In this document: piece after piece, positions 31,707 through 54,936 of the stretch
Layout: each line of letters starts with the position of its first letter
Numbering within the stretch: position 1 is the first letter of the stretch
Origin: an uncultured Methanomassiliicoccales archaeon
Lineage (GTDB): Archaea; Thermoplasmatota; Thermoplasmata; Methanomassiliicoccales; UBA472
Direction: 5' to 3'
Assembly (NCBI GenBank): GCA_963732855.1
Contig: CAVTBB010000003.1
Coordinates: forward strand, 285,790-349,789
Length of the DNA: 64,000 nucleotides
The notes under the pieces: generated by a model
What the model was told of the DNA's origin: nothing
The model's input: the letters and a program-made list of their open reading frames with translations, nothing else
Databases searched by the model: none
Translations under genes and position numbers: made by a program

Positions 31707-33647
31707 ATGGCTGCTAGTAAGAAAGTAGACGCCGCCCAACAGGAGGTCCGTTTAGACCCTGGGCAATCCTCCGTCGATGCGAGCATAGTCTCTGGAGCCA
31801 ATGACGGAACGGACCTCAAATCCTGGTTGGAAGGAGGAGACGATTTTCTATCATGGTTGAACGAAGGTGCCGAGGAGCAGGCGGCCGCTGAGCACAAACA
31901 GGTGGCAGTGGTCGAGGCAAGCTCGGAGTACATAGCCGAGCTCAATGACCGGCTCAAGAAATACGAGGATGAACTGCGCCTCCTTAAGATGAAGCTGGCG
32001 GAAGCGTTCATGGACAATGCCTCAGAATCATCCAGCAAGGATGTGGAGGTCGACTTGGGCCGAAAACTGCAGGAGCTCATCGAGGCAAAGGACCGCCTGG
32101 GACTCGAGGTGGACCGGCTCCAGAAACTGAACGATGAGATCAAGCAGCACTTCCAGCAGTCACTCGTCAACGTTTCAGAGGACAAATCGTCCTTGCTCAT
32201 GAAAGAGATAGAGCTCAAGGAGAAGGAGTCTAAGCTACTGACCCGGGTGAGGGAACTTGAGCTCCGGCAACGCGAGGCATCAAGCTACACCTCGAAGGAG
32301 GTCGAGGCGAACCTGGAGGAGCGGTTCCACACCGAGCTCAGACAGAAGGAGACGGAATGGCGGTTCAAGGAACAGCAATTGCTCAACCGCATCCAGGACA
32401 TGGAGAAGGAGATGCTGAGGCTCTCCATGGACCTCAAGCTCAAGGACGACAAGCTCAAGATCTCCAATCTGGGCAAGCCAGACATCGAGAAGGCGATATC
32501 CCAGAAGTACGAAGAGCTGATGGTCAAGGAGAAGGAATCGGCCCTGATGGAGAGCGAACTGGATCAGATGAAGATCCAGATACGCGAGAAGGATGACGAG
32601 CTGAAGAAGATCAGGGATGTCGTCACGTACAAGGAGGACGAGCTGAACCGCCGAGAAGAGGACATGATGTACCGTGAGAAGGTACTCTCCGGCGAGAAGC
32701 GCAAGTTCGAGGAGACCCGGAAAGAACTCAGCGGCACCGACGAGGTGGAGCTGAAGAAGCGCATCGAGGAGCTCAGGAACGAGGTGCAGAAGAAGGAGGA
32801 GGACCTCCGCGCCAAGGAAAGGTTCCTGAACACCAAGGCCGAGGAGATCCGGATGCGCGAGTCCGGCCTGATCGAGGACGAGATCAAGGCGAGGGAGAAG
32901 GACCGGGTATTAGAGGCCACTCAGGCCAAGGTCAAGACCGGCAACACGAGGCTGGATGACCTGCTGCTGGGCGGAATACCGTTCGGTTCCAACATCATGG
33001 TCCACGGCCCACCGTTCGTCGGCAAGGAGATCATGGTCAATTCGTTCGTGGCGGAAGGTCTGAAGAAGGGAATTCCGGCGTTGTGGGTTATCACAGACAA
33101 GACCCCCAAGGACATACGCGAAGAGATGAAGTTCGTTTTGTCCGGGTACGATGAGTACGAAAGGAAGGGACTGGTCCGGTACATTGACGCGTTCTCCCGC
33201 TCCATGGGAGATGATTCCAAGGACGAGTACACCGTCTATATCGACGAGCCCACCGATCACGAGAAGATATCGGAGGCGGTCGAGACCATCACTAAGTCTT
33301 TCCGCGAGAGCCATGAATATTATCGCATGGCGTTCCGCTCCATTTCCACATTGATCGCCTACTCCGACCCGAACACTGCGTTCCGGTTCCTGTCCCCGCT
33401 GTGCGGAAAGCGCAAGCGCGACAAGGCCGTCTCCATGTTCACGGTGGAGAAGGGAATGCACGGCGAACAGGAGATTCAGATGCTCGGCTCGATCATGGAC
33501 GGGATGATCGACTTCAAGGTCGACCAGCTGAAGACGTTCTTCTCGGTGCAGGGTATCAGCGAAGTTCAGTCCCGTGCCTATATCCGATACACCGCGTCGA
33601 AGCACGCGCTGCAGATCGGCTCATTCGCCCTAGACCACATAAGGTAA
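31707..33647 (+). CDS. long coiled-coil protein fused to a C-terminal KaiC/RecA-like domain with an atypical Walker A
   Basis: Roughly aa 60-400 are heptad-rich and E/K/L-biased. The C-terminal domain reads LDDLLLGGIPFGSNIMVHGPPFVGKEIMVNSFVAEGLKKG. Its Walker A is GPPFVGKE, with Glu where Ser/Thr is expected. Confidence 0.65.
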   Translation: MAASKKVDAAQQEVRLDPGQSSVDASIVSGANDGTDLKSWLEGGDDFLSWLNEGAEEQAAAEHKQVAVVEASSEYIAELNDRLKKYEDELRLLKMKLAEAFMDNASESSSKDVEVDLGRKLQELIEAKDRLGLEVDRLQKLNDEIKQHFQQSLVNVSEDKSSLLMKEIELKEKESKLLTRVRELELRQREASSYTSKEVEANLEERFHTELRQKETEWRFKEQQLLNRIQDMEKEMLRLSMDLKLKDDKLKISNLGKPDIEKAISQKYEELMVKEKESALMESELDQMKIQIREKDDELKKIRDVVTYKEDELNRREEDMMYREKVLSGEKRKFEETRKELSGTDEVELKKRIEELRNEVQKKEEDLRAKERFLNTKAEEIRMRESGLIEDEIKAREKDRVLEATQAKVKTGNTRLDDLLLGGIPFGSNIMVHGPPFVGKEIMVNSFVAEGLKKGIPALWVITDKTPKDIREEMKFVLSGYDEYERKGLVRYIDAFSRSMGDDSKDEYTVYIDEPTDHEKISEAVETITKSFRESHEYYRMAFRSISTLIAYSDPNTAFRFLSPLCGKRKRDKAVSMFTVEKGMHGEQEIQMLGSIMDGMIDFKVDQLKTFFSVQGISEVQSRAYIRYTASKHALQIGSFALDHIR

Positions 33648-33698: not shown

Positions 33699-34133
33699 CT
33701 ACGCGACCTCAACACCACTTCCCGGTTTTATCGTGCCTTTCTTCTGCACATTGATGTGGGGCAGGGGGAAAGGCGGGGGAAGCTTGATGTCCCTGGCAAC
33801 CAGGAGCGCGGTGGGCAGGCAGTTCGAAACGATGGTGTTGTGAACGACGTTCGCATCGTCCACCGGCATCGAGCCGTCCTTGGCCCATTCCGTCATGATG
33901 GCGTTAGCGTTTCCATCGCCGATTATTTGGCCTTCTATCTTGATGAAGCCCATCCCGGCATAGTTGGCGGTGAAACGGAAATCAACGGAGATGGTCTCGT
34001 CCGAAACCCTCACCACCTGGGTAATGCTACTGTTCTGATCGATGCGGATGTTGGCGATGCGTTCCCCTGCTTTGGAGAAACGTTTTGCCTCGATGACACT
34101 CATCTCGAAGGACTTGACCTGCATATTAACCAT
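33699..34133 (-). CDS. hypothetical protein
   Basis: Start placed at MVNMQVKSFEMS. Composition is protein-like. The overlapping plus-strand ORF 33654..34304 runs through the tRNA and looks like a shadow ORF. Confidence 0.5.
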   Translation of the reverse strand: MVNMQVKSFEMSVIEAKRFSKAGERIANIRIDQNSSITQVVRVSDETISVDFRFTANYAGMGFIKIEGQIIGDGNANAIMTEWAKDGSMPVDDANVVHNTIVSNCLPTALLVARDIKLPPPFPLPHINVQKKGTIKPGSGVEVA

Positions 34134-34198
34134 GCACCTTATCGGTGCGGGCGATATCAAACCTTTGTTGCTATACTAAAGAAGCAAATGAAAAGGAG

Positions 34199-34271
34199 TG
34201 CCGCAGGCCGGGCTCGAACCAGCGACTTCAAGGTCTTCAGCCTTGCACTCTCCCAGCTGAGTTACTGCGGC
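34199..34271 (-). tRNA. tRNA-Phe (anticodon GAA), no encoded CCA
   Basis: Minus strand: GCCGCAG-TA-ACTC-AGCTGGGA-GAGT-G-CAAGG-CTGAAGA-CCTTG-AAGTC-GCTGG-TTCGAGC-CCGGC-CTGCGGC-A. The cloverleaf folds fully by hand (73 nt). Confidence 0.9.
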
Positions 34272-34502: not shown

Positions 34503-35474
34503 ATGGTCAAAATTGGCTTTAGAAAAAGGATTCTGAGCAAATCAAGTCGGGCACGATGCTTACGCCGGGACCAAGAGGGAGTAGCTTCGGTCATCGGCAC
34601 GATCATGGCCCTGCTGATCTTCCTAACTTTCATGTCCATGTTCGTAAACACCTACATCCCGATTTGGATGAAGGAGAACGAACGCCTGCATATGAACGAG
34701 GTGCAGAACCAGATGGGCGAGATCAAGGGGAAGGTCGACAACCTGATAGTCAACGCTCAGGTCACCGGGACTAGCATGGTCACCACCTACCAGCCGTTGA
34801 CCCTGGGTGCGGATGGGATACCCCTGTTCGCTTCGCCCACTGCGGGTGCGATCGTCCTGAAACCGAGTGGTACAAGCACCACTGGGACTAGCATCTCCTT
34901 CAACTACACGTCAAACGCCGCAAAGGTCATGTTCAATGAGACCGGGGGCGGAAAGCTGGAGTTCTATGCGCCTAACCGTTACTACGTTGGCCAGTGGCTG
35001 GCATATGAGAACGGCGCCCTTATCGTCAAGCAGGACGCGGGGGAGGCCATGAAGGCCGCTCCATCCCTGACCCTGACAAAGAACAACAACATGGTCAACA
35101 TCGAGTTCACCCAGATCGACATCGTCGGTACCAACTCCACGATGGCCGGGACCGGGATCGCCGGGGTCAACATCAACCTGATCTACCTGGACACGCAGAT
35201 GTATGAGCCCCATTGGGCGGAGGGCGGGGCAGCCCAGAACACCACCGTCTTCAGCTTCAATACCGTTTATAGTGTGGCATACATGGACTTCATGAACAAG
35301 ACGATCGCGGCAGCCACGCCCCAGGGCAGCCCAAACCCCCTGGTAGCTGGTACAGATTACGTCCTGACGGACACCACCCTGCCGAACAAGTCCCACATGA
35401 TCACCCTTAAGATCATCAACACGGGAACGCTGACGCTCAGCCGCGCCTTCGTCCAGGTTGACATCAATGTTTAA
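34503..35474 (+). CDS. archaeal type IV pilin-like protein (class III signal peptide)
   Basis: The N-terminus reads ...RRDQEG|VASVIGTIMALLIFLTFMSMFVNTYIPIWM. This is a basic segment, Gly, and then a hydrophobic helix typical of prepilin-peptidase substrates. The rest is Thr/Asn-rich and looks extracellular, with N-x-S/T sites. Confidence 0.65.
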   Translation: MVKIGFRKRILSKSSRARCLRRDQEGVASVIGTIMALLIFLTFMSMFVNTYIPIWMKENERLHMNEVQNQMGEIKGKVDNLIVNAQVTGTSMVTTYQPLTLGADGIPLFASPTAGAIVLKPSGTSTTGTSISFNYTSNAAKVMFNETGGGKLEFYAPNRYYVGQWLAYENGALIVKQDAGEAMKAAPSLTLTKNNNMVNIEFTQIDIVGTNSTMAGTGIAGVNINLIYLDTQMYEPHWAEGGAAQNTTVFSFNTVYSVAYMDFMNKTIAAATPQGSPNPLVAGTDYVLTDTTLPNKSHMITLKIINTGTLTLSRAFVQVDINV

Positions 35475-35486
35475 TGAGGTTCCAGA

Positions 35487-37211
35487 ATGACGACAGAAGC
35501 AGATCCAATTGCTCGGGGCGGCAGGAGGCAGGAGCTGTCCAGAGAGAGCACCATGGAGAAGGCGAAGGAAGGCTACCTGCGCTTCCTTAAGAAGGTCGCC
35601 CCGAACCGCGGCATCAAGGTTATGCTATCCGCCAAGACAGTGGCGCAGAAACGTCTCCAGAAGGGTTCCCATGTCACAGACATCCCGCCGCTCAAGAGCT
35701 CTGCCATCGAGGTCCTAGAGACCTATCCCGTCAAGGAACCGTACAGCTACATCAGGATCACGTTCAACAATGAGAACAGCGAATATCTCTACGAGGTCAT
35801 CGAGCCGGAACTGAACCGGGAAGAAAAGGACCTGCTGGCCCTGATCAAGGACACCTTGCAGCGCACCCTCGGCTACGAGTGGGAGAAGCTGACCTCGCTG
35901 GACAAGGAAGAGTACCTCCGGGAGAGCGTGGACTCGTTCGTGCAGACAAGGGGCATCAAGGTCGAGCCGATAACCAAGAAGAAGCTCGGCTACTACATCA
36001 TCAGGGATTTCGTCGGCCATGGCGTGATCGACGTCATGATGAACGACGACGACATCGAGGATATCTCCTGCGACGGTTACAACATACCGATCTTCATCTC
36101 CCACCGGAAGTATGAGTCAGTGCGGTCTAACATCATATTTGACAACGAGGATTCGCTTAACAACTTCGTTGTGACGCTATCGCAGAGGAGCGGAAAACAG
36201 ATCTCGGTTTCGAGCCCGATCCTGGACGGCACGACCATCGAGGGTCACCGGGTCCAGGCGACATATTCTAGGGAGGTCACCACCCGAGGGTCGACCTTTA
36301 CCATCAGACGTTTCAAGCACCGCCCGTTCACCCCGGTGGACCTGCTGAAGTACAAGACAGTCTCCCCGGAGATGATGGCCTACCTTTGGCTGGGAGTCGA
36401 GAACGGGGAATCGATGATCCTGTGCGGGGGGACGGCGTCCGGCAAGACGTCCGCCTTGAACTCGCTGGCACTGTTCATCCCGCCGGGAGCCAAGATCGTC
36501 ACCATGGAAGATACCAGGGAGATTAACCTGCCCCATGAGAACTGGATCCCGGGAATGACCCGTACCGGGGTCGGCGAGAAGGACCGGGACGGAAAGTCGG
36601 CCGGTGAGATCGACATGTTCGACCTGGTGCGTGCCGCCCTGAGGCAACGTCCTAACTACATCATCGTTGGAGAGGTCAGGGGAAAGGAGACCTACATAAT
36701 GTTCCAGGCGATGGCGACCGGGCATTCGACCTATTCGACCATGCATGCCGATTCTGTCAAGTCCATGGTGAACAGGCTGGAGAACCCGCCCATCAACTGC
36801 CCCAGGATCCTGCTTACCGCTCTTCGCAACGTTTTGATCCAGGCACAAGTGCGGGTCGGGAACGACCTGGTGCGTCGGATGAAGCAGGTCATCGAGATCG
36901 TCGGATTTGAGCCAGAGACGAACGAGCTCATTACCAACACCGTCTATGAATGGGACCAAGCCACGGACCGATTCATCTACAAAGGTCACTCCTTCCTGTT
37001 CGACAAGATCATGGAAATGAAGTCGCTCACGCACGATGAGATGATGACGGAGTTCCAGAAGCGCATCGAGATCGTCAATTACATGGTGTTCAAGGACATG
37101 ATAGACTATCGCAAGATCTGGGCCATCACCAATGCTTATTACAAGGATCCTGAGAAGACGCTTGCCCGGATAAGGAAGGACACAGAGGAGGCTGGCAAGA
37201 ATGTCGCCTGA
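35487..37211 (+). CDS. FlaI/ArlI/TadA-family type IV filament assembly ATPase, copy 1
   Basis: 574 aa. Walker A GGTASGKTSALNSL and Walker B-region IIVGEVRGKE. A FlaI-type N-terminal domain is present (YLYEVIEPELNREEKDLL). Confidence 0.85.
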   Translation: MTTEADPIARGGRRQELSRESTMEKAKEGYLRFLKKVAPNRGIKVMLSAKTVAQKRLQKGSHVTDIPPLKSSAIEVLETYPVKEPYSYIRITFNNENSEYLYEVIEPELNREEKDLLALIKDTLQRTLGYEWEKLTSLDKEEYLRESVDSFVQTRGIKVEPITKKKLGYYIIRDFVGHGVIDVMMNDDDIEDISCDGYNIPIFISHRKYESVRSNIIFDNEDSLNNFVVTLSQRSGKQISVSSPILDGTTIEGHRVQATYSREVTTRGSTFTIRRFKHRPFTPVDLLKYKTVSPEMMAYLWLGVENGESMILCGGTASGKTSALNSLALFIPPGAKIVTMEDTREINLPHENWIPGMTRTGVGEKDRDGKSAGEIDMFDLVRAALRQRPNYIIVGEVRGKETYIMFQAMATGHSTYSTMHADSVKSMVNRLENPPINCPRILLTALRNVLIQAQVRVGNDLVRRMKQVIEIVGFEPETNELITNTVYEWDQATDRFIYKGHSFLFDKIMEMKSLTHDEMMTEFQKRIEIVNYMVFKDMIDYRKIWAITNAYYKDPEKTLARIRKDTEEAGKNVA

Positions 37212-38241
37212 AATCTCGGATATGTTCTCCAAGGTGGACACGAGCAAGCAGTCCTATATGAAGACCAAGAAGATCGGTGAGCACAAGAAGGAGCTCGGCC
37301 CCCGTGTCATCAGGCTGCCCGAGGGCGTAGTCCCTGACTATGTCAAGCTCACCAAGTACCAGGAGTTCTGCTGGAGAACGATGGGTAAGATCGTGCGTCT
37401 CCGGGCCAAGCCCAACCCCAAGCAGGAGTCGCTATTGTTGCAGGCGCACATGCGGATGCGGCAGGAAGAGTTCGTCGCTTTCGTTTGGATGACCACGCTG
37501 CTGGTGGCAATGATCACGGTCCTGATCAGCGTGTTCTTTGGCGCCATATTCTTGGCGGTGCTGAACATCAACCCGGCGCTGACCGTTCTCTTCTCCGTGA
37601 TGGTCGTTCTGGTCCCGACGATGATGACCTATGTGGTCATGAATTCGATGCCTGGCTCGAAGACGAAAACAAGAAAACGAGATATCGATAAGCGCATCGG
37701 TCCAGCTATGTCTTTCATTTCTGCGATGGCATCGGCAGACGTCAACATCGATGTCATTTTCAAAGAGCTCTCCCGCCAGCCGATCTATGGCGAGATACAG
37801 AAGGAGTCGGAATGGATCACCAGGGATACCGAGTTGCTCGGCATCGATATCCTTACCGCGATCGGCAAGGCCGCACAAAGGACACCCTCACAACGCTTCC
37901 AGGAATTCCTGCAAGGTGTCGTGACCACATCCACTTCCGGCGGTCAACTGAAACCATACTTCCTGCAGAAGGCAGAGCAGTTCGAGAAGGAGCACAAGCT
38001 GGAGATCAGGGCGCAACTGGAGAGCCTCGGTCTGATGGCCGAATCGTTCGTCACGGTGGTCGTGGCGTTCCCCCTGTTCCTTATCGTTATCATGGCCATT
38101 ATGGCCATCGTGCCAGGTGGTGGTGGCAGCGCCGGGACCACGATAACCCTGCTCTACTTGGTGGTAGGACTGATGGTCCCATTTTCCCAGTTCGGCTTCA
38201 TCTTCTTCATCTGGAACAGTACGAAGGAGTCGACGATGTGA
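37201..38241 (+). CDS. FlaJ/TadB-like platform membrane protein, first half-gene (single T2SS-F domain)
   Basis: 346 aa. A cytoplasmic helical domain (GPAMSFISAMASADVNIDVIFKELS...GIDILTAIGKAAQRT) is flanked by TM segments. Confidence 0.75.
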   Translation: MSPEISDMFSKVDTSKQSYMKTKKIGEHKKELGPRVIRLPEGVVPDYVKLTKYQEFCWRTMGKIVRLRAKPNPKQESLLLQAHMRMRQEEFVAFVWMTTLLVAMITVLISVFFGAIFLAVLNINPALTVLFSVMVVLVPTMMTYVVMNSMPGSKTKTRKRDIDKRIGPAMSFISAMASADVNIDVIFKELSRQPIYGEIQKESEWITRDTELLGIDILTAIGKAAQRTPSQRFQEFLQGVVTTSTSGGQLKPYFLQKAEQFEKEHKLEIRAQLESLGLMAESFVTVVVAFPLFLIVIMAIMAIVPGGGGSAGTTITLLYLVVGLMVPFSQFGFIFFIWNSTKESTM

Positions 38242-38250
38242 GGTGCTCAA

Positions 38251-39168
38251 ATGGCCACTGACAAGAACCCGGAAATAATGGACCTTAAGCAACTCAGATC
38301 CGAAAAGCATGACTACACCAAAACTGCCTTAATCGTCGGCGTGGTAATCGGCGTTATCTTCTTCCTCATTGGATTCCTAGACGCCATCGGCGGCCTGGAG
38401 ACGCCGCTGAACTGGATCGACTACGTTGCGCTGGGATTGATGGGCATGTCGGGACCGTACGGGTTCTACACCACATACAAGCACAAGAGGGTCAAGAACA
38501 TCGAGGCCCGCCTTCCTGATTTCCTCAGGGACGTGGCCGAAGCGGGCCGGTTCGGAATGACCTTGGCCGAGTCCATCAAGGTCTCGTCCCGTGGGAGATA
38601 TGGGCCGCTGACGCCCGAGATCCAACGCATGGCAGCGCAGATCGAGTGGGGCGTACCTGCGGCCGAGGCGCTGAAGCTATTCGCCGAGCGTGTCGACACC
38701 CCGCTGGTCAACCGGATGATATCGATCATCATCAAGGCCAACGATGCCGGCGGTAACGTCGCGGACGTGCTCAGCATGGTTGCCCACGATGCCCGCGAGA
38801 GCATGCTCGACCAGAGCGAGCGCAGCCTGGAAATGTCTACCTACACCGTCGTCATCTATGTTGCATTCGCGGTGTTCCTGGCCACGATCTTCATCCTTAA
38901 CGCGACCTTCCTGCCGAAGATGGCGGAAGCTGGAGCGCAGGTGGCCGCGGGCGCCGAAGCGGCCGGCATAACCAACATGCCAGCCACCATCAAGACCGAG
39001 ATCATACCGCAGATACAGCTCATATTCGTAATATCTGTCGTTATCCACGCCTTTGGTGACGGGATACTCGCGGGGGTGTTGCAAGACGGCCGCATCGCCA
39101 ATGGTCTGAGGCATTCGTTCATTATGCTCCTGATTGGGCTGATCGGGACAAAACTTGGAGGGGCCTGA
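38251..39168 (+). CDS. FlaJ/TadC-like platform membrane protein, second half-gene (single T2SS-F domain)
   Basis: 305 aa with LPDFLRDVAEAGRFGMTLAESIKVSS...WGVPAAEALKLFAERV...ANDAGGNVADVLSMVA, flanked by TM segments. Confidence 0.75.
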   Translation: MATDKNPEIMDLKQLRSEKHDYTKTALIVGVVIGVIFFLIGFLDAIGGLETPLNWIDYVALGLMGMSGPYGFYTTYKHKRVKNIEARLPDFLRDVAEAGRFGMTLAESIKVSSRGRYGPLTPEIQRMAAQIEWGVPAAEALKLFAERVDTPLVNRMISIIIKANDAGGNVADVLSMVAHDARESMLDQSERSLEMSTYTVVIYVAFAVFLATIFILNATFLPKMAEAGAQVAAGAEAAGITNMPATIKTEIIPQIQLIFVISVVIHAFGDGILAGVLQDGRIANGLRHSFIMLLIGLIGTKLGGA

Positions 39169-40894
39169 ATTGGAAGCCGGCAAAGAACCAAAGGACGAGA
39201 TCGAGGAAGTCCTCAAGAGGAACCGCGAGCCTCGCGTCAAGCTGACTGCCATGCAGGGGTTTAACAGCAAGTACCTCGGATTCCTGCTGAAGGTCAAGAG
39301 CCGACCCATTAAGGTCCTGCAGCGATCTGAGGCGAGGCCGATGGAGCTCGATACCGGCGTCATAACCGATGTGCCGAAGATAGCGGAGCAGTATGTGGAC
39401 GAGGTCGAAGTGACCCCTGTCCTGAAACCCTATTCATTCGTCCGCATCAAGTTCGACAACACCTCTTCCGAGTATATCTATGAGGTCATCGAACCGCGTC
39501 TGTCCGATGACGAGATGTACCTGCTGGACATACTGAAGTCATCCCTCATCGTCACGCTCAACCTGACCGTCAGGAAGTCCCCCAAGGAGAAGATGGAGAT
39601 CCTGCGCAAGGCAACGGACGAGCTGCTGCGGGTGTTCGAGGTCAACCCTAACCCATTGTCGAAAGAACGTATCCTCTACTACCTGCGCCGGGACTTCATA
39701 GGCTATGGGGCGATCGACGTCATGATGATCGACCCGAATGTCGAGGATTGTTCCTGCGACGGAGTCAACATCCCGCTCTATATATTCCACCGCAAGTACG
39801 GTTCCATCAAGTCTAACGTCAAGTTTGAGAAGGAGGATGAACTGGACTCGTTCGTGGTGTGGTTATCGCAGAAGTGCGGAAAGCACATCTCGGTGGCCAG
39901 TCCAATGCTGGACGCAACGATCCCGGACGGCTCCAGGCTGAATGCGACGCTCGGTATGCACGTCACCAAGAGAGGCTCGTCGTTCACCATCAGACGGTTC
40001 AAGGAAAACCCGTTCACGCCCATCGACCTGCTCAAGTTCAAGACCATGAGCACGGAGATGATGGCCTACCTATGGATATCCACCGAGTTCGGCTCGTCGA
40101 TGCTGGTATGCGGTGGTACCGCTTCCGGAAAGACGACCACGCTGAACGCCGTGCTGCTGTTCATCCCGCCCCAGAAGAAGATCATCAGTATCGAGGACAC
40201 CAGGGAGCTGAACCTCCCACACGAGAACTGGATCCCCGGCCTGACCCGGGAGGGATTCGGCGGCAAGAAGGCGGGCAGCACCGGTTCGGTCGACATGTTC
40301 GACCTTCTGACCGCGGCTTTGAGGCAACGTCCCGATTACCTGATGGTCGGTGAGGTCAGAGGCAAGGAGGCGTATGTCGTCTTCCAGGCCATGGCCACCG
40401 GAAAGACCTCCTATTCCACTTTCCACGCAGAGGATGTCCAGGCGATGGTGCACAGGATGGAGAACGACCCGATCAACCTGCCCCGGGCTCTGATGACCGC
40501 ATTGGACATCGTCATGCTCCAGGCCCAGGTCAAGGTCGGCACCAAGATGACCAGGAGGGTCAAGTCGCTTACTGAGATCGTGGGCATGGACCCGGAGACC
40601 GGGGAGCTGATCACCAACGCGGTTTTCAGCTGGAACCCGGCGGACGACTCCTTCAACTATTCCGGTCATTCGTACATCTTCGAGAAGGTCAGGACCATTA
40701 AGTCCTGGTCGCCGAGGGAGATGGAACGCGAAGTGAAACGCCGGGTCGAGATCTTAGAGTACATGAAGAAGACCGGCGTGGACAATTACAAGCAGGTCGC
40801 GAGGATCATCTCAGCCTATTACAAGAGCCCGGAGCGCGCCATGTTGGAGATCCGGGAGAAGATGACGTCCACGCAACCAGTCCTTCCCCAGTGA
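39155..40894 (+). CDS. FlaI/ArlI/TadA-family type IV filament assembly ATPase, copy 2
   Basis: 579 aa. Walker A GGTASGKTTTLNAV, plus LMVGEVRGKE. The N-terminal domain is collinear with copy 1 (YIYEVIEPRLSDDEMYLL). The start is a TTG at 39155 or 39170 and is uncertain. Confidence 0.85.
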   Translation: MEGPELEAGKEPKDEIEEVLKRNREPRVKLTAMQGFNSKYLGFLLKVKSRPIKVLQRSEARPMELDTGVITDVPKIAEQYVDEVEVTPVLKPYSFVRIKFDNTSSEYIYEVIEPRLSDDEMYLLDILKSSLIVTLNLTVRKSPKEKMEILRKATDELLRVFEVNPNPLSKERILYYLRRDFIGYGAIDVMMIDPNVEDCSCDGVNIPLYIFHRKYGSIKSNVKFEKEDELDSFVVWLSQKCGKHISVASPMLDATIPDGSRLNATLGMHVTKRGSSFTIRRFKENPFTPIDLLKFKTMSTEMMAYLWISTEFGSSMLVCGGTASGKTTTLNAVLLFIPPQKKIISIEDTRELNLPHENWIPGLTREGFGGKKAGSTGSVDMFDLLTAALRQRPDYLMVGEVRGKEAYVVFQAMATGKTSYSTFHAEDVQAMVHRMENDPINLPRALMTALDIVMLQAQVKVGTKMTRRVKSLTEIVGMDPETGELITNAVFSWNPADDSFNYSGHSYIFEKVRTIKSWSPREMEREVKRRVEILEYMKKTGVDNYKQVARIISAYYKSPERAMLEIREKMTSTQPVLPQ

Positions 40895-41243: not shown

Positions 41244-44192
41244 TCACTCCTTCTTCGGTTCCTCTGGTGGGGCTTGTTCCACGAATTGCTCAGCCGGTTC
41301 CTGTGCGACCTTCTTCGAGACCACCTTGCGATCTGACGACCGCTTGACGATCTTGCGGAAGGGCTTCTGTTCCCCAGCATCTCCGGCCGGGGTCATGTCT
41401 GAGACCTTGTCGAACACGGTGCCGCACTTGGAGCAGATGGTAGCCCCTTTCGGGTTCAGGGTGCCGCATGACGGGCATGTCATGGAACCGACCTTGCGGT
41501 CCGCCTCCTGCTTGGCCACCCAAACCTCGAAGGGCATATAGGCCGGCTCGGTCTTGAGCCAATCCATGAACTTTTCCTCGGAGTACTTCTTGCCCAGGGC
41601 GGCCTTGGCCTGCTCCCGGAACCCGTTGACGTACTCCTCGTACTGCCTCCTCATGGACGCCATGTAATCGTCCTCGGATATCTCTTCCACTGGCTCGGTC
41701 ATGAACTTCGCGCCGCACTCGGGGCATTCCTTCGACTTCGCGGGTATCCAGGTGCCGCACTCGGAACACTTTGCGGTGTCCGTCTCGAACTCGGTGGCGC
41801 ACCTTGGGCAGCGCTTCGAGCTCTCCGGGATCAACGCACCGCATTCGCCGCACTCCACCATCTTTCCCAGCCCATACTTGTACAGGTATACCGAGAAGAT
41901 TATGATGACCGCGATTACGATGACCGCTATGAGGATGAAGATCCAGAACGGTATCGACTGGGGCTTGAATATCTCCACGATGTTGATCGGGAGCGCGGAC
42001 GAGTAGACCGCACCGGTGTTCAACGTCACGCTCACCGAGTGAGAACCGGCCCGGTCCGTGGGCACAAAGACATAGCCGCTATAAGCTCCATTGCTGTCGG
42101 TCTTGGTCGGAACTGGCTGTCCGACGGGCAACCCGCCCGCATCCAGCAGCCTGATGGTTATCGACTGGTTGGCCAGAGCGTAGTTACCATCGGCGTTCGT
42201 GATCTCTCCGTAGACGTATATCGACTCACCGGGCTGGAATTCCGTCCTGCCGCCCGCGCTGATCACTATCAGCGGGTTCGGCACATTGACGGTGAAGTTC
42301 CGGGCGTCGATGTTGTTGGTGTAGTTCGACTCCTCTATCACATGCATGGAGTTGACTTCCACAACCAATGAGTAGACGCCGGCGGTGACGTTCACGACCC
42401 ACGGGAACGATACCTGCACTGAACCTCCGCCCATCAGGTCCTTGGTCGTGGTCATCAGCAGGGTTTTGAAGTTGTCGCTGTCCTTGACGTAGATGTTCAG
42501 GATGGCCCCGTTCGCGGGCTTCATGCCCTGGTTGGCCATAGTGAACGTTATATCGATCGACTGGCCAAGAACGGCGGAGGAAGTGGAGTTGGTGCTGCCA
42601 GATGGCTTCACCGATACACCCGTCGGGTACCATATGTCCGCCCGGTTGTCGATCACGAGAACCGAGTTGGCAATTATGTTGTTACCATAATACGTCTCCT
42701 TGATCGGAGTGTCGTTGCCCTGGGTGAAGGGGTTTACCTCCACCGTGATCATGCGGCTCTGGTTATGCAAGGAATCCTGAAGGACGTTGGCGATCCAGGA
42801 TGTCCGTATATCGGCGGTGACGCCGGATTCTAAGCTTGGCACGAACACATTACCGATCACGATGCCGGTGCTCGTCGTTCCAAGCCAGAACCGTACCATG
42901 AAGTTGGTGGCCTTTGACTCGCCGGCGTTCATCACGGTCGCCGTCAAGGTGACGGACTCACCTATGAACACCTGTGTTACCACAGATCCGGAGCTGGTCA
43001 GTTTGAACTGCAGGTTCGTCGCCACCAGGTCTGGATAGTCCAGAACGTGGACGACCTTGCCAGCCTGGTTGTTCCCTTTGTATGCTTCCAAGAAGGCGTT
43101 CTCCTCATCGATCACCACGGTGATGTTGTGATCGCCTGGCAACATGTTGTTCCAGGTCATGATGGCCACACCGGTCTGTCCGCTGCGGATCGCCGGCAGG
43201 GTGAAGTTGCCTATCAGGGTCCTGACGTTCTTGAACACGTCATAGAAGCTGACCACAGCGGACTGGTCCATGTTGTCCCCGCCATTCATGATGTCAGCGC
43301 GGATAGACACGGTTGAATTGGCCACTGGTGAGGTTGGATCTACAATTATATGATTAGAAGTAATGATCAGATCCGGTACCCCTAGGACCGTTACCGTTGT
43401 CTGGTTCCAGTTGTTGCCGAGGTGCAGCTCCGAGATGGCTTCGAGCGGGTTCACCGTCACATTGAGCACATGATCGCCCACTGGATAAGATGCCGTCCAC
43501 TGGACCTTGATGTTCGAATAATCACCTGGTGCGATTGAGGCAATTGTTCGGTCCTCGATTATCGTGCCGGTGGTCAGGTCACTGAAGCGGACAAGTGTAT
43601 CATAGGCTGTGGCGACACCCGAGTTCGTCACGTTCACTGTGAGATCCACCAGATCGCCCACAGAGGGGTTGAGGTTGGAAACCAAGAATGGTGGGTACAG
43701 TTCTGGTAGTGCGTATAATGCCTGGAACGTGACATTGCTGGTATAAGAATTCGCGACCGTGTTTGGGTAATGCAGGAAGAGGGTCGATATTCCAGCGCTA
43801 TTGTTTAGTACGTTCAACCCTCCCGAATTAAGGTACACGAATACCAGGTTGTAGTCGAATGCCTTGCCATTCCAGACATTGGAGCTGTTGAGCACATCGC
43901 TCAGGAGCGGTATCTTGACGAAACCATCCATTCCGGTCCAGTTGAAGTTGGTCTCGGTCTTCCCTAGGTAGTTCAGGATTGCCTGTGATGGGGCGGAAGC
44001 TACTCCCGACTGGCCGAGGTAGTACGCTGTTATGTCGGTGCCATTGATGTAGGATGTTATTCCGACGTTTCCGACCGGCAGCATTTTGTTATCCGTGACA
44101 TTAAGGCCCATCCAGCGGTAAATGGCGACTGTAGGCTCGGATACAATGTTTAACCAAATAGCATCAAAATATACGATTCCGGCTGATGCCAA
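41244..44192 (-). CDS. C-terminal ~1000 aa of a giant surface protein: CARDB-like repeats, one TM helix and a cytoplasmic tail with zinc ribbons
   Basis: Repeated units end ...GNN.. (HLGNNWNQT, YKGNNQAG, YYGNNIIAN, NYTNNIDAR), as in CARDB domains. The TM helix is IPFWIFILIAVIVIAVIIIFSVYLY. The tail carries CGECG..CPRC, CSECG..CPECG and CPSCG..CSKCG. There is no ATG start and no signal peptide. The frame stays open up to 44324. Confidence 0.75.
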   Translation of the reverse strand: MASAGIVYFDAIWLNIVSEPTVAIYRWMGLNVTDNKMLPVGNVGITSYINGTDITAYYLGQSGVASAPSQAILNYLGKTETNFNWTGMDGFVKIPLLSDVLNSSNVWNGKAFDYNLVFVYLNSGGLNVLNNSAGISTLFLHYPNTVANSYTSNVTFQALYALPELYPPFLVSNLNPSVGDLVDLTVNVTNSGVATAYDTLVRFSDLTTGTIIEDRTIASIAPGDYSNIKVQWTASYPVGDHVLNVTVNPLEAISELHLGNNWNQTTVTVLGVPDLIITSNHIIVDPTSPVANSTVSIRADIMNGGDNMDQSAVVSFYDVFKNVRTLIGNFTLPAIRSGQTGVAIMTWNNMLPGDHNITVVIDEENAFLEAYKGNNQAGKVVHVLDYPDLVATNLQFKLTSSGSVVTQVFIGESVTLTATVMNAGESKATNFMVRFWLGTTSTGIVIGNVFVPSLESGVTADIRTSWIANVLQDSLHNQSRMITVEVNPFTQGNDTPIKETYYGNNIIANSVLVIDNRADIWYPTGVSVKPSGSTNSTSSAVLGQSIDITFTMANQGMKPANGAILNIYVKDSDNFKTLLMTTTKDLMGGGSVQVSFPWVVNVTAGVYSLVVEVNSMHVIEESNYTNNIDARNFTVNVPNPLIVISAGGRTEFQPGESIYVYGEITNADGNYALANQSITIRLLDAGGLPVGQPVPTKTDSNGAYSGYVFVPTDRAGSHSVSVTLNTGAVYSSALPINIVEIFKPQSIPFWIFILIAVIVIAVIIIFSVYLYKYGLGKMVECGECGALIPESSKRCPRCATEFETDTAKCSECGTWIPAKSKECPECGAKFMTEPVEEISEDDYMASMRRQYEEYVNGFREQAKAALGKKYSEEKFMDWLKTEPAYMPFEVWVAKQEADRKVGSMTCPSCGTLNPKGATICSKCGTVFDKVSDMTPAGDAGEQKPFRKIVKRSSDRKVVSKKVAQEPAEQFVEQAPPEEPKKE

Positions 44193-44330: not shown

Positions 44331-45983
44331 CTATAGGCAACATAACCACCGTTTGTATACCGCAACGGAAGTCCTGTACCTCAAGTTAATTGAAGCATTC
44401 ACGATCAGACCGTTCAAATCGCCGACATTGAAGTGACTGACTTGCATTATTTGGCCTGTACCAGTCTGATAATATACAGTGTCAATTGTCTGAAGGTAGC
44501 TAAGTGTGTTGCCCGTCGTAGTGTCCGAAGGTCCGGTCGTATCCGGCTTAATTATCACTTGATGATTCTTGGTCTGGAACACGTTGGTGCCATTATAACT
44601 GCCAGCGCTGTCCACAACAGTGACCCCATAGAGGTTCGCGATCGATTGATCGAGCGCCACCAGCTTGTGGTATGCACCATTAGTCGCGTTCGTCCCCGCG
44701 TTCTCGTCAATATTGTTCAGTGGAATGAACGAGTCGGCAGCGATGAGGTTCGTCGACCCACCAAGGGTGATATTACGATATGTAGACAGCTTCATGTCTA
44801 TCGTGACCCAGATCCTGTCGATATAGACATTGCCGGCCTTAGAATTGGTGTAGTTCAGTGCCAGTTTGCTCAGGCTCTGTGCCGACATGTTCGGCAATAC
44901 GAAGTTCTTTGTGGTGTTGATGTTCGTCAATGAAGGATCGTAGCCCTGGTAGGTCGGAGTGGTCGTTAGAGTTGTTGCTGTTGCACTGCCAAACTGTGGA
45001 GTGTAATAAAATGAGTCGTGCGTTCCTGCGATTGGGGCATTGGTGCTTGTCTTATAACTCAAATGCAGAACGATACTAACGATATCGGCCGCCTCGAAGA
45101 CCAGACCACCCATGTCAAAACCGGTTGTATAGAGTTTCTGGGTCGTAGCAACCGTCACGTTCTTGGTGTCGTTCATGGTCATCGACAGCGGAATGCCGGT
45201 GGCCGTGGTCCCGACGCCGAACACTTCATTGACGTCCCGTTCTAGGAAGTAGTCGACGAACTGCCGGCTGCTCGTATCCCTTGCGAACTGGTAGTTGTTG
45301 TTGAAGGGAGGTGTGAGGACCGTGTTGTACGACCCGTTGTCATACATATCTTTTATCTGCGAGCCGATCATCGTCACATCACTGGAAATGAACATCATGA
45401 CCGGAGAGCTGCTGAAGACTTCGGAAGGGAAGGAGAGCGAAGTGTATGACGGTGTCACTCCCGAGATGGTCGAATTGATCAGTGTGAACCTGGCATCATC
45501 GACTAGAAGGTGCCCGGAGAATGAGATGATGGACGACCTTGACTCAAAGTAGCCGCCATGCCTGACGACAACTCCAAGGGCTGGTATGGGATTGCGCGAA
45601 TCAACAACCGTCTTCATAGTGGAGTTATCAAGGATCAGCATGCCGCCGTCCTCGACGGTGATGGAAAGTGCCTTTACACCCGCGCCTGTCGGTGTGGATC
45701 CCGAATAGGAAGAACGGAAGAGCACGGTCGAATTCATGATCTCGACAATTCCGCCTGCTCTGATCGTCAGGTTGCCGTCGAACGTGACCGTCCCTTGGTT
45801 ATACAGTAATAGGTTATTGGAATAGCCAGTACCGACGATCATATCCTTCACTGGAATTTCACCCTGAGCAGTAACTCCCACCTCAGGGATTGCTATCAGA
45901 AGAATGCCCAAAAAGGACGAAATCACCATGCACCAAACAATTGCAAAGCTAACAAGCTTGTTGAATCCAGCACCCAGCCTCAT
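44331..45983 (-). CDS. N-terminal ~550 aa of the same surface protein (signal/anchor plus beta-rich domain)
   Basis: The N-terminal hydrophobic segment is LVSFAIVWCMVISSFLGILLIAIPEV. The rest is Thr/Asn/Ser-rich. The motif LSKLALNYTNSKAGNVYIDRIWVTI recurs downstream as FAELANLRIRYSNLASAGIVYFDAIWLNI. Confidence 0.7.
   Translation of the reverse strand: MRLGAGFNKLVSFAIVWCMVISSFLGILLIAIPEVGVTAQGEIPVKDMIVGTGYSNNLLLYNQGTVTFDGNLTIRAGGIVEIMNSTVLFRSSYSGSTPTGAGVKALSITVEDGGMLILDNSTMKTVVDSRNPIPALGVVVRHGGYFESRSSIISFSGHLLVDDARFTLINSTISGVTPSYTSLSFPSEVFSSSPVMMFISSDVTMIGSQIKDMYDNGSYNTVLTPPFNNNYQFARDTSSRQFVDYFLERDVNEVFGVGTTATGIPLSMTMNDTKNVTVATTQKLYTTGFDMGGLVFEAADIVSIVLHLSYKTSTNAPIAGTHDSFYYTPQFGSATATTLTTTPTYQGYDPSLTNINTTKNFVLPNMSAQSLSKLALNYTNSKAGNVYIDRIWVTIDMKLSTYRNITLGGSTNLIAADSFIPLNNIDENAGTNATNGAYHKLVALDQSIANLYGVTVVDSAGSYNGTNVFQTKNHQVIIKPDTTGPSDTTTGNTLSYLQTIDTVYYQTGTGQIMQVSHFNVGDLNGLIVNASINLRYRTSVAVYKRWLCCL

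Positions 45984-52461: not shown

Positions 52462-54936
<2,475 letters not shown>

What the first reader, a model, noticed from the sequence alone, without database searches (positions are those of the whole stretch)
31707..33647. Recurring theme: RecA/KaiC-like or DUF835 domains paired with long coiled coils and zinc ribbons at three separate loci
Three loci show the same pairing:
- Locus 1 (31707-33647) fuses a ~350-aa coiled coil to a KaiC-like domain. Its P-loop reads GPPFVGKE, with Glu replacing the Ser/Thr that normally coordinates Mg, so the domain is probably non-hydrolytic or atypical.
- Locus 2 (46180-48137) has the same two parts as separate genes, with an intact P-loop and an added Zn ribbon.
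- Locus 3 (56679-58823) has a DUF835-type protein convergent with a double-Zn-ribbon helical protein.

Three occurrences in 64 kb suggest an expanded family of modular signalling or scaffold systems built from the same parts. KaiC-like ATPases have been proposed as archaeal signalling hubs, but these partner architectures are uncharacterised.
Basis: inference. Interest (0 to 1): 0.55.

Follow-up and report, generated by a model that had tools for sequence, protein, structure and literature searches.

The report
KaiC-like proteins with coiled-coil, zinc-ribbon partners
Three loci in this methanogen-related archaeon pair one working and two catalytically dead KaiC-type ATPase domains with long helical and zinc-ribbon partners, and two of the loci are halves of one gene cluster, conserved across the class Thermoplasmata, that lies next to genes for giant cell-surface proteins; its function is untested.

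Summary
The window comes from a Methanomassiliicoccales archaeon.

- **Locus 1** is a 646-aa protein: about 350 aa of long helices followed by a KaiC/DUF7504-type RecA-like domain. The GPPFVGKE motif is invariant in this family. The catalytic Glu pair (now Asp-Lys) and the Walker B Asp (now Arg) are also lost, so the domain is a pseudo-ATPase. The family is large: 151 clusters (50% identity) at E<1e-30. Most members carry long helical N-termini, and some also carry Zn ribbons.
- **Locus 2** is an intact single-domain KaiC followed by a coiled-coil/Zn-ribbon protein. A comparable charged downstream gene is present in 75 of 78 related loci, and 65 of them have Zn ribbons.
- **Locus 3** is a DUF835 protein (described in the literature as an inactivated KaiC) convergent with a double-Zn-ribbon helical protein.

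The main new result is that in other Thermoplasmata the locus 3 pair lies directly upstream of the locus 2 KaiC. Loci 2 and 3 are therefore one conserved module, split here by gyrBA and thiC. A giant surface-protein gene follows the module. In Methanomassiliicoccales, loci 1 and 2 also bracket a conserved type-IV-pilus-like operon.

The three ATPase-like domains are anciently distinct families, not a local expansion. I read the system as a KaiC-centred switch or scaffold, probably acting on the cell envelope. It fits the published KaiC-hub idea, so it is a new variant of a known kind.

The parts
31707..33647 (+). Locus 1: 646-aa protein with a helical/coiled-coil N-terminal part and a pseudo-KaiC (KaiC/DUF7504-type) C-terminal domain
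   Evidence: Pfam KaiC 1.8e-20, DUF7504 49 bits, DUF7090. Full-length orthologues at 48-93% identity in Methanomassiliicoccales.
31863..32930 (+). Long helical, coiled-coil-like region (aa 53-408), broken at about aa 103-110, 156-157, 192-196, 254-256 and 341-345
   Evidence: AlphaFold2 secondary structure. A crude heptad/charge heuristic exceeds shuffled controls. Oligomeric state was not tested.
31815..31868 (+). Conserved 'LKxWLxG...WL' motif (aa 37-54; W40 and W50 invariant). It occurs in several copies in relatives that also carry an N-terminal Zn ribbon and HhH motifs.
   Evidence: Alignment A1; N-termini of representatives.
32931..33644 (+). RecA-like pseudo-ATPase domain (aa 409-646)
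   Evidence: Foldseek hits to ArlH 4yds, KaiC and PH0284, E about 1e-8. Collinear hhalign alignment with the locus 2 KaiC.
33006..33029 (+). Variant Walker A motif GPPFVGKE (aa 434-441), with Glu in place of Ser/Thr
   Evidence: Invariant in 17 orthologues. This position is Glu in 115 and Asp in 12 of 150 family representatives.
33699..34160 (-). Unannotated gene of about 141-153 aa next to locus 1. It is conserved beside the orthologues in L081 and L082.
   Evidence: tblastn 60-63% identity at the same position. No Pfam family.
34503..40894 (+). Type-IV-pilus-like operon: pilin-like 323 aa, PilB-like ATPase, two TadC-like membrane proteins, second PilB-like ATPase
   Evidence: Pfam T2SSE, PilB3_C and T2SSF. 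Same order in L081 and L082 at 44-73% identity.
41244..44192 (-). 982-aa surface protein: four CARDB domains, one transmembrane helix, and a cytoplasmic tail with three Zn ribbons
   Evidence: Pfam CARDB 1.4e-41, DZR and Zn_Ribbon_1. Sequence read directly. Follows the 550-aa gene in Methanomassiliicoccales loci.
44331..45983 (-). 550-aa protein with an N-terminal membrane anchor. It is homologous to the N-terminal part of the giant surface proteins that follow the KaiC operon in other Thermoplasmata.
   Evidence: tblastn hits in 41 loci. 27% identity over 210 aa to the L050 giant ORF.
46180..47373 (-). Locus 2 partner: 397-aa coiled-coil protein with one C-terminal Zn ribbon (aa 304-321, nt 46411-46464)
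   Evidence: A charged downstream gene is present in 75 of 78 related loci, and 65 of these have one to three Zn ribbons.
47436..48137 (-). Locus 2: intact single-domain KaiC (233 aa). Walker A GPPGSMKT is at nt 48036-48059; it also has TLEE and a Walker B Asp.
   Evidence: Pfam KaiC 3e-36. PDB profile hits to KaiC, PH0186 and PH0284. 65-99% identity across 80 Thermoplasmata loci.
56679..57719 (+). Locus 3: 346-aa protein with a conserved unannotated N-domain and a DUF835 domain (aa 206-340, nt 57294-57698). It has no P-loop.
   Evidence: Pfam DUF835 5.7e-24. Alignment A4. Both domains recur in DnaA-AAA+/DUF835 proteins of about 580-790 aa next to KaiC elsewhere.
57747..58823 (-). Locus 3 partner: 358-aa protein with two Zn ribbons (aa 19-67, nt 58623-58769) and then helical-hairpin repeats
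   Evidence: Pfam DZR. AlphaFold2 secondary structure. Orthologues lie divergent from KaiC in 24 of 30 distant loci.

Best explanation
The three loci encode parts of KaiC-centred cytoplasmic switch or scaffold assemblies. They are not three copies of one duplicated system.

**The module (loci 2 and 3).** These loci form one module that is conserved across the class Thermoplasmata. Its members are:
- an intact, very conserved single-domain KaiC ATPase;
- a co-transcribed coiled-coil protein that ends in Zn ribbons;
- a divergently encoded protein with a double Zn ribbon and helical repeats;
- a DUF835 (inactivated KaiC) protein, which outside Methanomassiliicoccaceae also carries a DnaA-type AAA+ module;
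- one or more giant membrane-anchored surface-protein genes immediately downstream.

**Proposed mechanism (inferred, by analogy with KaiC, ArlH and GvpD).**
- The intact KaiC forms a nucleotide-dependent ring that switches state by ATP binding, hydrolysis or autophosphorylation.
- The elongated coiled-coil and helical partners dock on the ring and act as adaptors.
- Their Zn ribbons serve as docking modules. The same ribbon type is found on the cytoplasmic tail of the neighbouring CARDB surface protein.
- The dead KaiC paralogues (DUF835 and the locus 1 protein) act as non-catalytic ring partners or competitors.
- The likely output is control, anchoring or assembly of envelope structures, meaning the giant surface proteins and the adjacent type-IV-pilus-like machine.

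**Locus 1.** This protein belongs to a separate, widespread DUF7504-type pseudo-KaiC family. It keeps the P-loop Gly and Lys but has lost the Mg-coordinating Thr, both catalytic Glu residues and the Walker B Asp. It probably cannot hydrolyse ATP and may at most bind a nucleotide or a phosphorylated ligand.
For: **Shown: domain identities and active-site states**
- Domain assignments.
- Collinear alignment of the locus 1 domain with the locus 2 KaiC gives T34 to E441, E58/E59 to D464/K465, and D127 to R544. All of these residues are invariant in 17 orthologues.
- Across 150 family representatives, the last Walker A residue is Glu in 115 and Asp in 12. The P-loop Lys is kept in 135. The second catalytic-Glu position is Lys or Arg in 100. 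The Walker B position is Asp in only 8.

**Shown: gene linkage**
- KaiC is followed by a charged gene in 75 of 78 loci, and 65 of these have Zn ribbons. Of the 13 without a ribbon, 8 are cut by contig ends.
- In lineages that share only 65-69% KaiC identity and no other synteny, the double-Zn-ribbon helical gene lies divergent and immediately upstream in 24 of 30 loci. The DUF835 gene is present in 15 of 21 loci with enough flanking sequence (undercounts L061 because of an ORF artefact).
- Giant ORFs with an N-terminal anchor follow the coiled-coil gene in at least 13 distant loci. One carries Pilin_N.
- The window's 550-aa and 982-aa proteins correspond to parts of such a giant protein.

**Shown: Zn ribbons and independent transcription**
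- The Zn ribbons of the two partner proteins are similar (E=5e-6). The CARDB protein has three of the same type on its cytoplasmic tail.
- A stem-loop with a T-run follows gyrA, and an A/T-rich TATA-like box precedes the KaiC gene. This argues that KaiC and its partner are transcribed separately from gyrase.

**Shown: the same parts combined elsewhere**
- P0310 is a single protein with Zn ribbon, coiled coil and pseudo-KaiC.
- L090 has a GvpD-like P-loop ATPase, a coiled-coil protein, a coiled-coil/pseudo-KaiC fusion and a stand-alone pseudo-KaiC in a row.
- L092 has a KaiC, a Zn-ribbon protein and a Zn-ribbon membrane protein close to a locus 1 family member.

**From the literature**
- DUF835 and MEDS are classed as inactivated KaiC domains (PMC5847659).
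- KaiC-family genes are strongly associated with archaeal type IV pilus loci. Coiled-coil and double-Zn-ribbon proteins also occur in such loci (PMC4858521).
- ArlH and CirA are KaiC-like regulators of archaellum function and motility (PMC10983859).
Against: - No protein-protein contact, ring formation or ATPase activity was tested. Every mechanistic step is an analogy.
- The link between locus 1 and the pilus operon holds only within Methanomassiliicoccales (window, L081, L082), where general synteny is also conserved. It is absent in L090, L091, L092 and L093.
- No PilB or TadC genes lie within 6 kb of the module in distant Thermoplasmata.
- Five distant loci lack both the double-Zn-ribbon helical gene and the DUF835 gene.
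- Some coiled-coil partners lack a Zn ribbon (L051, L054).
- DZR-type Zn ribbons are very common in archaeal proteins, so their recurrence here may not be specific.
- Some DNA-related hints exist: gyrBA adjacency, the DnaA-type AAA+ fusion, HhH motifs in relatives, and RPA-like neighbours.
- I could not read Makarova et al. 2017. I cannot say whether this exact neighbourhood is already described there.
Confidence: 0.5

Rival explanations
1. The proteins are structural accessories of the type-IV-pilus-like machine. On this view the KaiC-like domains play the role of ArlH and the coiled-coil parts the role of ArlX or ArlCDE. Together they would form a cytoplasmic ring or scaffold around the two PilB-like ATPases encoded between loci 1 and 2.
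For: - Loci 1 and 2 bracket a pilin/PilB/TadC/TadC/PilB operon.
- The whole block of roughly 17 kb recurs in L081 and L082 at 44-73% identity.
- The best structural match of the locus 1 domain is ArlH/FlaH 4yds.
- Makarova 2016 reports that KaiC genes and coiled-coil proteins occur in type IV pilus loci.
Against: - The NCBIfam ArlH model scores 21-24 bits against a cut-off of 215.
- An opposite-strand gene and a tRNA separate locus 1 from the operon.
- Outside Methanomassiliicoccales, neither the locus 1 family nor the KaiC module lies next to PilB or TadC genes.
- The KaiC233 module is conserved in lineages where only the giant surface-protein gene is nearby.
Confidence: 0.2
2. The proteins act on DNA as RadA/RecA-paralogue-type factors in repair, replication or chromosome handling, rather than on the cell envelope.
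For: - The KaiC operon follows gyrB-gyrA in all Methanomassiliicoccales loci and in L080.
- The DUF835 protein carries a strong bacterial-type DnaA ATPase domain (4.6e-55) and an Hda lid in other Thermoplasmata.
- RPA-like OB-fold genes lie nearby in L084 and L086.
- Locus 1 relatives have HhH motifs and an N-terminal Zn ribbon, reminiscent of RadA or Sms.
- SSO2452, among the PDB relatives of both domains, is from my own recall a KaiC-like RadA paralogue.
Against: - A terminator-like hairpin and a separate promoter-like element separate gyrA from the KaiC gene.
- Gyrase adjacency is absent in most distant lineages, whereas the surface-protein gene is retained.
- RadA, RadB and Sms models score far below their cut-offs.
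- The window proteins themselves lack the HhH motifs, the N-terminal Zn ribbon and the DnaA-type module.
Confidence: 0.12
3. There is no functional connection. On this view three unrelated RecA-superfamily genes happen to lie in one syntenic region, and the coiled coils and Zn ribbons are just common archaeal building blocks.
For: - The three domains are only remotely similar to each other.
- The coiled-coil similarity is marginal.
- DZR Zn ribbons are common in archaea.
- Within Methanomassiliicoccales even housekeeping neighbours are syntenic, for example DHS, DUF531 and thiC.
Against: - The four-to-five-gene arrangement around KaiC233 survives in lineages where all other synteny is lost.
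- Fusion proteins combine the same parts.
- Operons elsewhere combine an active KaiC-like ATPase, a coiled-coil protein and a pseudo-KaiC.
Confidence: 0.1

Closest known systems
Archaeal KaiC-like ATPases and inactivated KaiC domains (iKaiC: DUF835, MEDS), proposed as signal-transduction hubs (Makarova, Galperin and Koonin 2017; cited in PMC5847659 and PMC6393860)
   Same: - Single-domain KaiC-family ATPases and P-loop-less or inactivated paralogues.
- Encoded next to predicted adaptor proteins.
- Function predicted from gene context only.
   Different: - The specific module has not been found in any paper I could read: KaiC + coiled-coil/Zn ribbon + double-Zn-ribbon helical protein + (AAA+)-DUF835 + giant surface protein.
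- The GKE-type (DUF7504) family with long coiled coils is also absent from those papers.
ArlH (FlaH) with ArlX or ArlCDE and ArlI/ArlJ of the archaellum motor
   Same: - A KaiC-like single-domain protein that works with a PilB-type ATPase, a TadC-type membrane protein and coiled-coil scaffold proteins.
- ArlH (4yds) is the best structural match of the locus 1 domain.
- PilB- and TadC-type genes lie between loci 1 and 2.
   Different: - ArlH has a canonical Walker A and binds ATP with Mg, as the title of PDB entry 4yds states. Locus 1 lacks the Mg-coordinating residue.
- The ArlH model scores far below its cut-off.
- There are no archaellin or ArlCDE/ArlX genes here.
- The pilus linkage is limited to one order.
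GvpD of haloarchaeal gas-vesicle clusters, and CirA of Haloferax volcanii
   Same: - KaiC-family P-loop proteins that act as regulators of a cellular structure, not as clocks.
- In L090, a GvpD_P-loop-type ATPase sits in one operon with a locus 1 family member.
   Different: - No gas-vesicle genes or arl genes are present here.
- The partner proteins differ: coiled-coil, Zn-ribbon and helical-repeat proteins.
HP0958 (FlgZ) of Helicobacter pylori: a coiled-coil hairpin with a Zn ribbon, needed for flagellum formation (cited in PMC4858521)
   Same: - Architecture of a long coiled coil followed by a C-terminal Zn ribbon.
- A cytoplasmic accessory of a surface appendage.
   Different: - No sequence relationship was detected. 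The Pfam scan at E<=0.1 returned no such family.
- Different domain of life and a different partner ATPase.
Cyanobacterial KaiC (circadian oscillator) and Rhodobacter KaiC with a C-terminal coiled coil (the latter recalled from memory)
   Same: - RecA-like KaiC fold.
- The locus 2 protein keeps Walker A, the catalytic Glu pair and Walker B.
- A coiled coil is appended to a KaiC ring.
   Different: - Single domains here, not the double CI-CII domain.
- I did not look for KaiA or KaiB partners.
- In locus 1 the coiled coil is N-terminal, about 350 aa long, and attached to a dead domain.

Membership tests
KaiC family (Pfam PF06745), locus 2 protein 47436-48137 | Profile match above the curated cut-off, and a RecA-like core | tested here: met
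   125.4 bits against a cut-off of 26.6. PDB profile hits to KaiC, PH0186 and PH0284 over the whole length.
KaiC family (Pfam PF06745), locus 2 protein 47436-48137 | Walker A GxxxxGK[ST], catalytic Glu pair and Walker B Asp | tested here: met
   GPPGSMKT, TLEE and LDS are present and invariant in 15 orthologues. They align with TFEES of KaiC.
Bona fide circadian KaiC | Duplicated CI-CII domains of about 500 aa, with KaiB or KaiA partners | tested here: not met
   All three proteins have a single domain. The circ_KaiC models score 20-83 bits against cut-offs of 408-546. I did not search specifically for KaiA or KaiB.
KaiC family, hexamer formation and autophosphorylation | Nucleotide-dependent ring and autokinase activity | not testable with these tools
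   Needs biochemistry or multimer modelling.
KaiC family, active ATPase, locus 1 domain | Walker A Ser/Thr, catalytic Glu pair and Walker B Asp | tested here: not met
   The corresponding residues are E441, D464-K465 and R544, all invariant in the orthologues. The fold and profile match are retained, so the domain is a KaiC-superfamily pseudo-enzyme.
DUF7504 (Pfam PF24336), locus 1 domain | Profile match above the curated cut-off | tested here: met
   49.3 bits against a cut-off of 27. NCBI names a relative 'DUF7504 family protein'.
DUF835 / inactivated KaiC (Pfam PF05763), locus 3 protein | Profile match above the curated cut-off, and no P-loop | tested here: met
   84.9 bits against a cut-off of 33.1, aa 206-340. 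No GxxxxGK[ST] motif is seen in alignment A4, while a Walker-B-like VDDLQ is kept. Classed as iKaiC in PMC5847659.
DUF835 related to the KaiC/RecA fold | Detectable profile or structure similarity to KaiC-like domains | tested here: inconclusive
   hhalign against the locus 1 domain gives E=0.006 over 76 columns. Against the locus 2 KaiC it gives E=0.09. There is a weak FlaH hit at 0.031, and L084's DUF835 region weakly hits DUF7504 at 2.7e-4. No PDB sequence relative was found. No structure was predicted.
ArlH (NCBIfam NF052589) | Equivalog score above the cut-off, and location in an arl cluster | tested here: not met
   24 and 21 bits against a cut-off of 215. The neighbouring ATPases are PilB3-like, not ArlI within an arl cluster.
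RadA / RadB / Sms recombinases | Equivalog score above the cut-off | tested here: not met
   13-16 bits against cut-offs of 172-403.
Known anti-phage defence systems (PADLOC) | Match to a defence protein model | tested here: not met
   Only coiled-coil-type weak matches to JetC (8.5e-6) and DrmA (0.0036). The KaiC-like proteins gave no hits.

The most novel reading that the evidence does not exclude
The module is a previously undescribed machine found across Thermoplasmata. In this reading, a highly conserved active KaiC ring is coupled, through Zn-ribbon, coiled-coil and helical-repeat adaptors and dead KaiC paralogues, to giant envelope proteins that carry matching cytoplasmic Zn-ribbon tails. 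The machine would either drive their export or anchoring, or carry signals inward from the surface. Members of the GKE pseudo-KaiC family would serve as hydrolysis-dead scaffolds, with an acidic Walker A residue and a basic residue at the catalytic-Glu position filling the Mg/gamma-phosphate site.
Probability: 0.25. Interest if true: 0.7.

Novelty: new variant of a known kind. Interest (0 to 1): 0.5.

Why it matters
KaiC-like ATPases are among the most expanded and least understood protein families in archaea. The proposal that they act as signalling hubs still rests mostly on genome context.

- **A defined target set.** This analysis identifies four or five genes conserved across a whole archaeal class. 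At its centre is a KaiC that stays 65-99% identical across the 80 fetched Thermoplasmata loci.
- **Fusion evidence.** Fusion proteins suggest that the coiled-coil and Zn-ribbon partners contact KaiC-like domains physically.
- **A natural pseudo-enzyme family.** The GKE family has more than 150 clusters at 50% identity. Its active-site substitutions (Thr to Glu in Walker A; Glu to Lys or Arg at the second catalytic position) can be tested directly by mutagenesis.
- **An envelope link.** If the connection to giant surface proteins and pili holds, it would show how some Thermoplasmata control their cell envelope.

Tried and rejected
- **Direct comparison of the three ATPase-like domains.** BLASTP gave E=0.059 or nothing. 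hhalign with narrow family profiles gave only weak hits (E=0.002-0.09). Recent paralogy is rejected. The superfamily relationship rests on Pfam, structure and the literature.
- **Homology of the two coiled coils.** BLASTP gave E=0.003 with a repetitive K/E/R pattern. I treat this as compositional, not as evidence of homology.
- **Function of the double-Zn-ribbon helical protein.**
  - The PDB profile search gave only Zn-finger and weak TPR hits.
  - The single-sequence AlphaFold2 model is confident only to about aa 236.
  - Foldseek found nothing with E<0.1, and the Vipp1/ESCRT-III hits at E=0.2-1 are not meaningful.
- **DUF835 family against PDB sequences.** No hits.
- **Defence-system models (PADLOC).** Nothing relevant.
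- **The small gene next to locus 1.**
  - It is unrelated to the 156-aa gene that follows the locus 1 relatives in L090.
  - It has no Pfam family.
- **L092's 307-aa Zn-ribbon protein.** I tested whether its N-terminus is KaiC-like. It is not supported.
- **An E441-R544 salt bridge as a family-wide feature.** Rejected, because the Walker B position varies across the family (R 40, L 36, E 12 and others). The basic residue at the second catalytic-Glu position is more widespread, at 100 of 150.
- **Makarova et al. 2017 (mBio).** The paper could not be retrieved. Searches for DUF835, DUF7504 and iKaiC found only PMC5847659.
- **Bacterial promoter scan.** It is not applicable to archaea, so I read the intergenic sequence directly instead.


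Full report
**1. What is in the sequence**

The window comes from a Methanomassiliicoccales archaeon, according to the source names of near-identical proteins.

*Locus 1* (31707-33647, +, 646 aa)
- It matches Pfam KaiC (1.8e-20, aa 409-609). It also matches DUF7504 and DUF7090 above their cut-offs.
- An AlphaFold2 model built on 17 homologues predicts almost continuous helices from aa 53 to 408, with five short breaks. After these comes a RecA-like alpha/beta domain of moderate confidence.
- The best structural matches are ArlH/FlaH (4yds, 4.6e-9), KaiC and PH0284.

*Locus 2*
- 47436-48137 (-, 233 aa) is a KaiC match (3e-36).
- It is followed, after a 62-nt spacer, by a 397-aa protein. Its N-terminal half is charged and helical, and it carries one CPNC-x10-CWAC Zn ribbon.

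*Locus 3*
- 56679-57719 (+, 346 aa) is a DUF835 match (5.7e-24, aa 206-340).
- It is convergent with a 358-aa protein that has two Zn ribbons and then helical hairpins.

An HMM scan of all window ORFs finds exactly these three KaiC-superfamily genes.

**2. The GKE variant is a family hallmark, and the domain is a pseudo-ATPase**

GPPFxGKE is invariant in 17 orthologues that share 49-91% identity. In PDB alignments the Glu lies where RecA and PH0284 have the Walker A Thr.

A collinear profile alignment with the locus 2 KaiC shows two further losses:
- The catalytic Glu pair (LEE in KaiC233) is D464-K465 in locus 1.
- The Walker B Asp is R544 in locus 1.

An exhaustive search with the C-terminal domain found 151 clusters (50% identity) at E<1e-30 and 539 at E<1e-10. 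Among the best 150 representatives:
- The last Walker A residue is Glu in 115 and Asp in 12.
- The P-loop Lys is kept in 135.
- The second catalytic-Glu position is Lys or Arg in 100.
- The Walker B position is Asp in only 8.

Whether the conserved Glu pairs with the basic residue to fill the Mg/gamma-phosphate site is my own inference.

By contrast, the locus 2 KaiC keeps all catalytic motifs. The DUF835 domain has no P-loop but keeps a Walker-B-like VDDLQ. Galperin et al. class it as an inactivated KaiC.

**3. The three domains are old, distinct families**

Pairwise BLASTP is insignificant. hhalign between the family profiles gives only E=0.002-0.09. This is not a locally expanded family.

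The coiled-coil parts share only a repetitive K/E/R pattern (E=0.003). The Zn ribbons of the two partner proteins are clearly alike (E=5e-6). The same type occurs three times on the cytoplasmic tail of the 982-aa CARDB surface protein at 41244-44192.

**4. Conserved pairing**

I fetched 80 genomic loci that encode relatives of the locus 2 KaiC at 65-99% identity. All are from Thermoplasmatota, apart from L016, a short contig binned as a Shapirobacteria MAG.

*The KaiC and coiled-coil pair*
- In 75 of 78 loci with a downstream ORF, that ORF is highly charged. In 65 it ends in one to three CxxC-x(8-16)-CxxC ribbons.
- Of the 13 without a ribbon, 8 are cut by contig ends.

*Methanomassiliicoccales*
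- The order gyrB-gyrA-KaiC-coiled coil-550-aa protein-CARDB protein is conserved.
- So is the order thiC, DUF835, then the convergent double-Zn-ribbon protein.

*The decisive result comes from the 30 more distant Thermoplasmata loci.* These share no other synteny with the window.
- The double-Zn-ribbon helical gene lies immediately upstream of the KaiC gene and divergent from it in 24 of 30 loci.
- A DUF835 gene is convergent with it in 15 of 21 loci that have enough flanking sequence (undercounts L061 because of an ORF artefact).

Window loci 2 and 3 are therefore two halves of one conserved module, separated here by gyrBA and thiC.

*Further features of the distant loci*
- The DUF835 protein is about 580-790 aa long. 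It carries a strong bacterial-type DnaA ATPase domain and an Hda lid ahead of the two domains present in the window protein.
- Giant ORFs with an N-terminal anchor (more than 1500 aa) follow the coiled-coil gene in at least 13 of these loci. One carries Pilin_N.
- The window's 550-aa and 982-aa proteins match parts of such a giant protein.

**5. Context of locus 1**

Between loci 1 and 2 lies a type-IV-pilus-like operon: a pilin-like gene, two PilB-like ATPases and two TadC-like genes. The whole block recurs in L081 and L082 at 44-73% identity. In L081's contig the KaiC operon (L043) lies about 17 kb from the locus 1 orthologue.

Outside this order the pilus link is lost. Relatives of locus 1 instead sit in other settings:
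- in tandem with further GKE-type paralogues (L091);
- in an operon with a GvpD-like P-loop ATPase and a coiled-coil protein (L090);
- close to another KaiC, a Zn-ribbon protein and a Zn-ribbon membrane protein (L092).

Of 150 family representatives, 96 have long charged helical N-termini, by a crude charge/helix heuristic. Several add an N-terminal Zn ribbon, HhH motifs and repeated WLxG...WL motifs. The combination Zn ribbon + coiled coil + KaiC-like domain thus occurs both as fusion proteins and as neighbouring genes. This is fusion-type evidence that the parts act together.

**6. Mechanism**

*Shown:* domain identities, active-site states and conserved gene linkage.

*Inferred:*
- The intact KaiC forms a nucleotide-driven ring switch.
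- The coiled-coil/Zn-ribbon and helical-repeat proteins are adaptors.
- The dead paralogues are non-catalytic partners.
- The output acts on envelope structures.

The inference is by analogy with ArlH, CirA and GvpD. It also draws on the reported association of KaiC genes, coiled-coil proteins and double-Zn-ribbon proteins with archaeal type IV pilus loci.

A terminator-like hairpin with a T-run after gyrA, and an A/T-rich box before the KaiC gene, argue against co-transcription with gyrase.

*Rival explanations:*
- a purely structural pilus accessory, like ArlH and ArlX;
- a DNA-related role, suggested by gyrase adjacency, the DnaA-type fusion, HhH motifs and RPA-like neighbours;
- no functional link at all.

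**7. Comparison with known systems, and novelty**

- The finding fits the KaiC-hub concept of Makarova et al. 2017, which I could not read.
- The locus 1 and locus 2 proteins fail the membership tests for circadian KaiC, ArlH and RadA/RadB/Sms.
- None of the seven proteins scanned matches a defence-system protein beyond weak coiled-coil-type hits.
- I found no paper that describes DUF7504, or that describes this module.

I rate it a new variant of a known kind, of moderate interest. Its value lies in giving experiments a sharply defined, widely conserved target. Its limitation is that the function remains inferred.

Noticed in passing
window 48297-52451 (-) and 52462-54894 (-): Both gyrase subunits carry inteins. 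GyrA (1384 aa) has Hint, LAGLIDADG_3 and Intein_splicing at about aa 114-578. GyrB (810 aa) has a mini-intein at aa 468-608. In relatives the intein is in only one subunit: GyrB in L088 and GyrA in L089.
   Followed up: partly
window 34503-40894 (+): This is a type-IV-pilus-like operon with two PilB3-like ATPases and two TadC-like genes. It is conserved in other Methanomassiliicoccales. Makarova et al. 2016 reported that the Methanomassiliicoccus genomes then available lacked secretion ATPases.
   Followed up: partly
L084 5908-8220; L086 6054-8246; proteins P0291-P0301: In non-Methanomassiliicoccaceae Thermoplasmata the DUF835 protein is fused to a strong bacterial-type DnaA ATPase domain (Bac_DnaA 4.6e-55) and an Hda lid. 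A DnaA/Hda-type AAA+ domain in archaea, joined to an inactivated KaiC, is unusual.
   Followed up: partly
window 31815-31868 (aa 37-54 of locus 1); P0302-P0316: There is a conserved 'LKxWLxG(x6-8)WL' motif with two invariant Trp residues. Relatives carry it in two to four copies, after an N-terminal Zn ribbon and HhH motifs. It may be a short peptide-binding or docking motif. Its function is unknown.
   Followed up: no
window 41244-44192 (-): The 982-aa protein with four CARDB domains has a single transmembrane helix (about aa 748-772) and a cytoplasmic tail of roughly 210 aa. The tail carries three Zn ribbons of the same type as the KaiC partner proteins.
   Followed up: partly
window 33699-34160 (-): This unannotated gene of about 141-153 aa is conserved next to the locus 1 orthologues (60-63% identity in L081 and L082). 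It has no Pfam family.
   Followed up: partly
window 34198-34271 (-) and 56451-56525 (-): tRNA-Phe(GAA) lies between locus 1 and the pilus operon. tRNA-Thr(CGT) lies between thiC and the DUF835 gene.
   Followed up: no
L084 5383-5778 and 2689-4976; L086 3211-5943: In some distant Thermoplasmata a PRC-barrel gene and an RPA-like OB-fold gene pair lie just upstream of the DnaA-DUF835 gene. Clustering placed the PRC-barrel-sized gene (133 aa) and a neighbouring 320-aa gene there in 6 of 32 loci each.
   Followed up: no
L092 662-2825: A different KaiC subfamily member (231 aa, 25% identical to the locus 2 KaiC) sits in an operon with a wHTH-like 181-aa protein, a 307-aa protein ending in two Zn ribbons, and a Zn-ribbon/transmembrane protein. 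The operon lies about 1.7 kb from a locus 1 family gene.
   Followed up: partly
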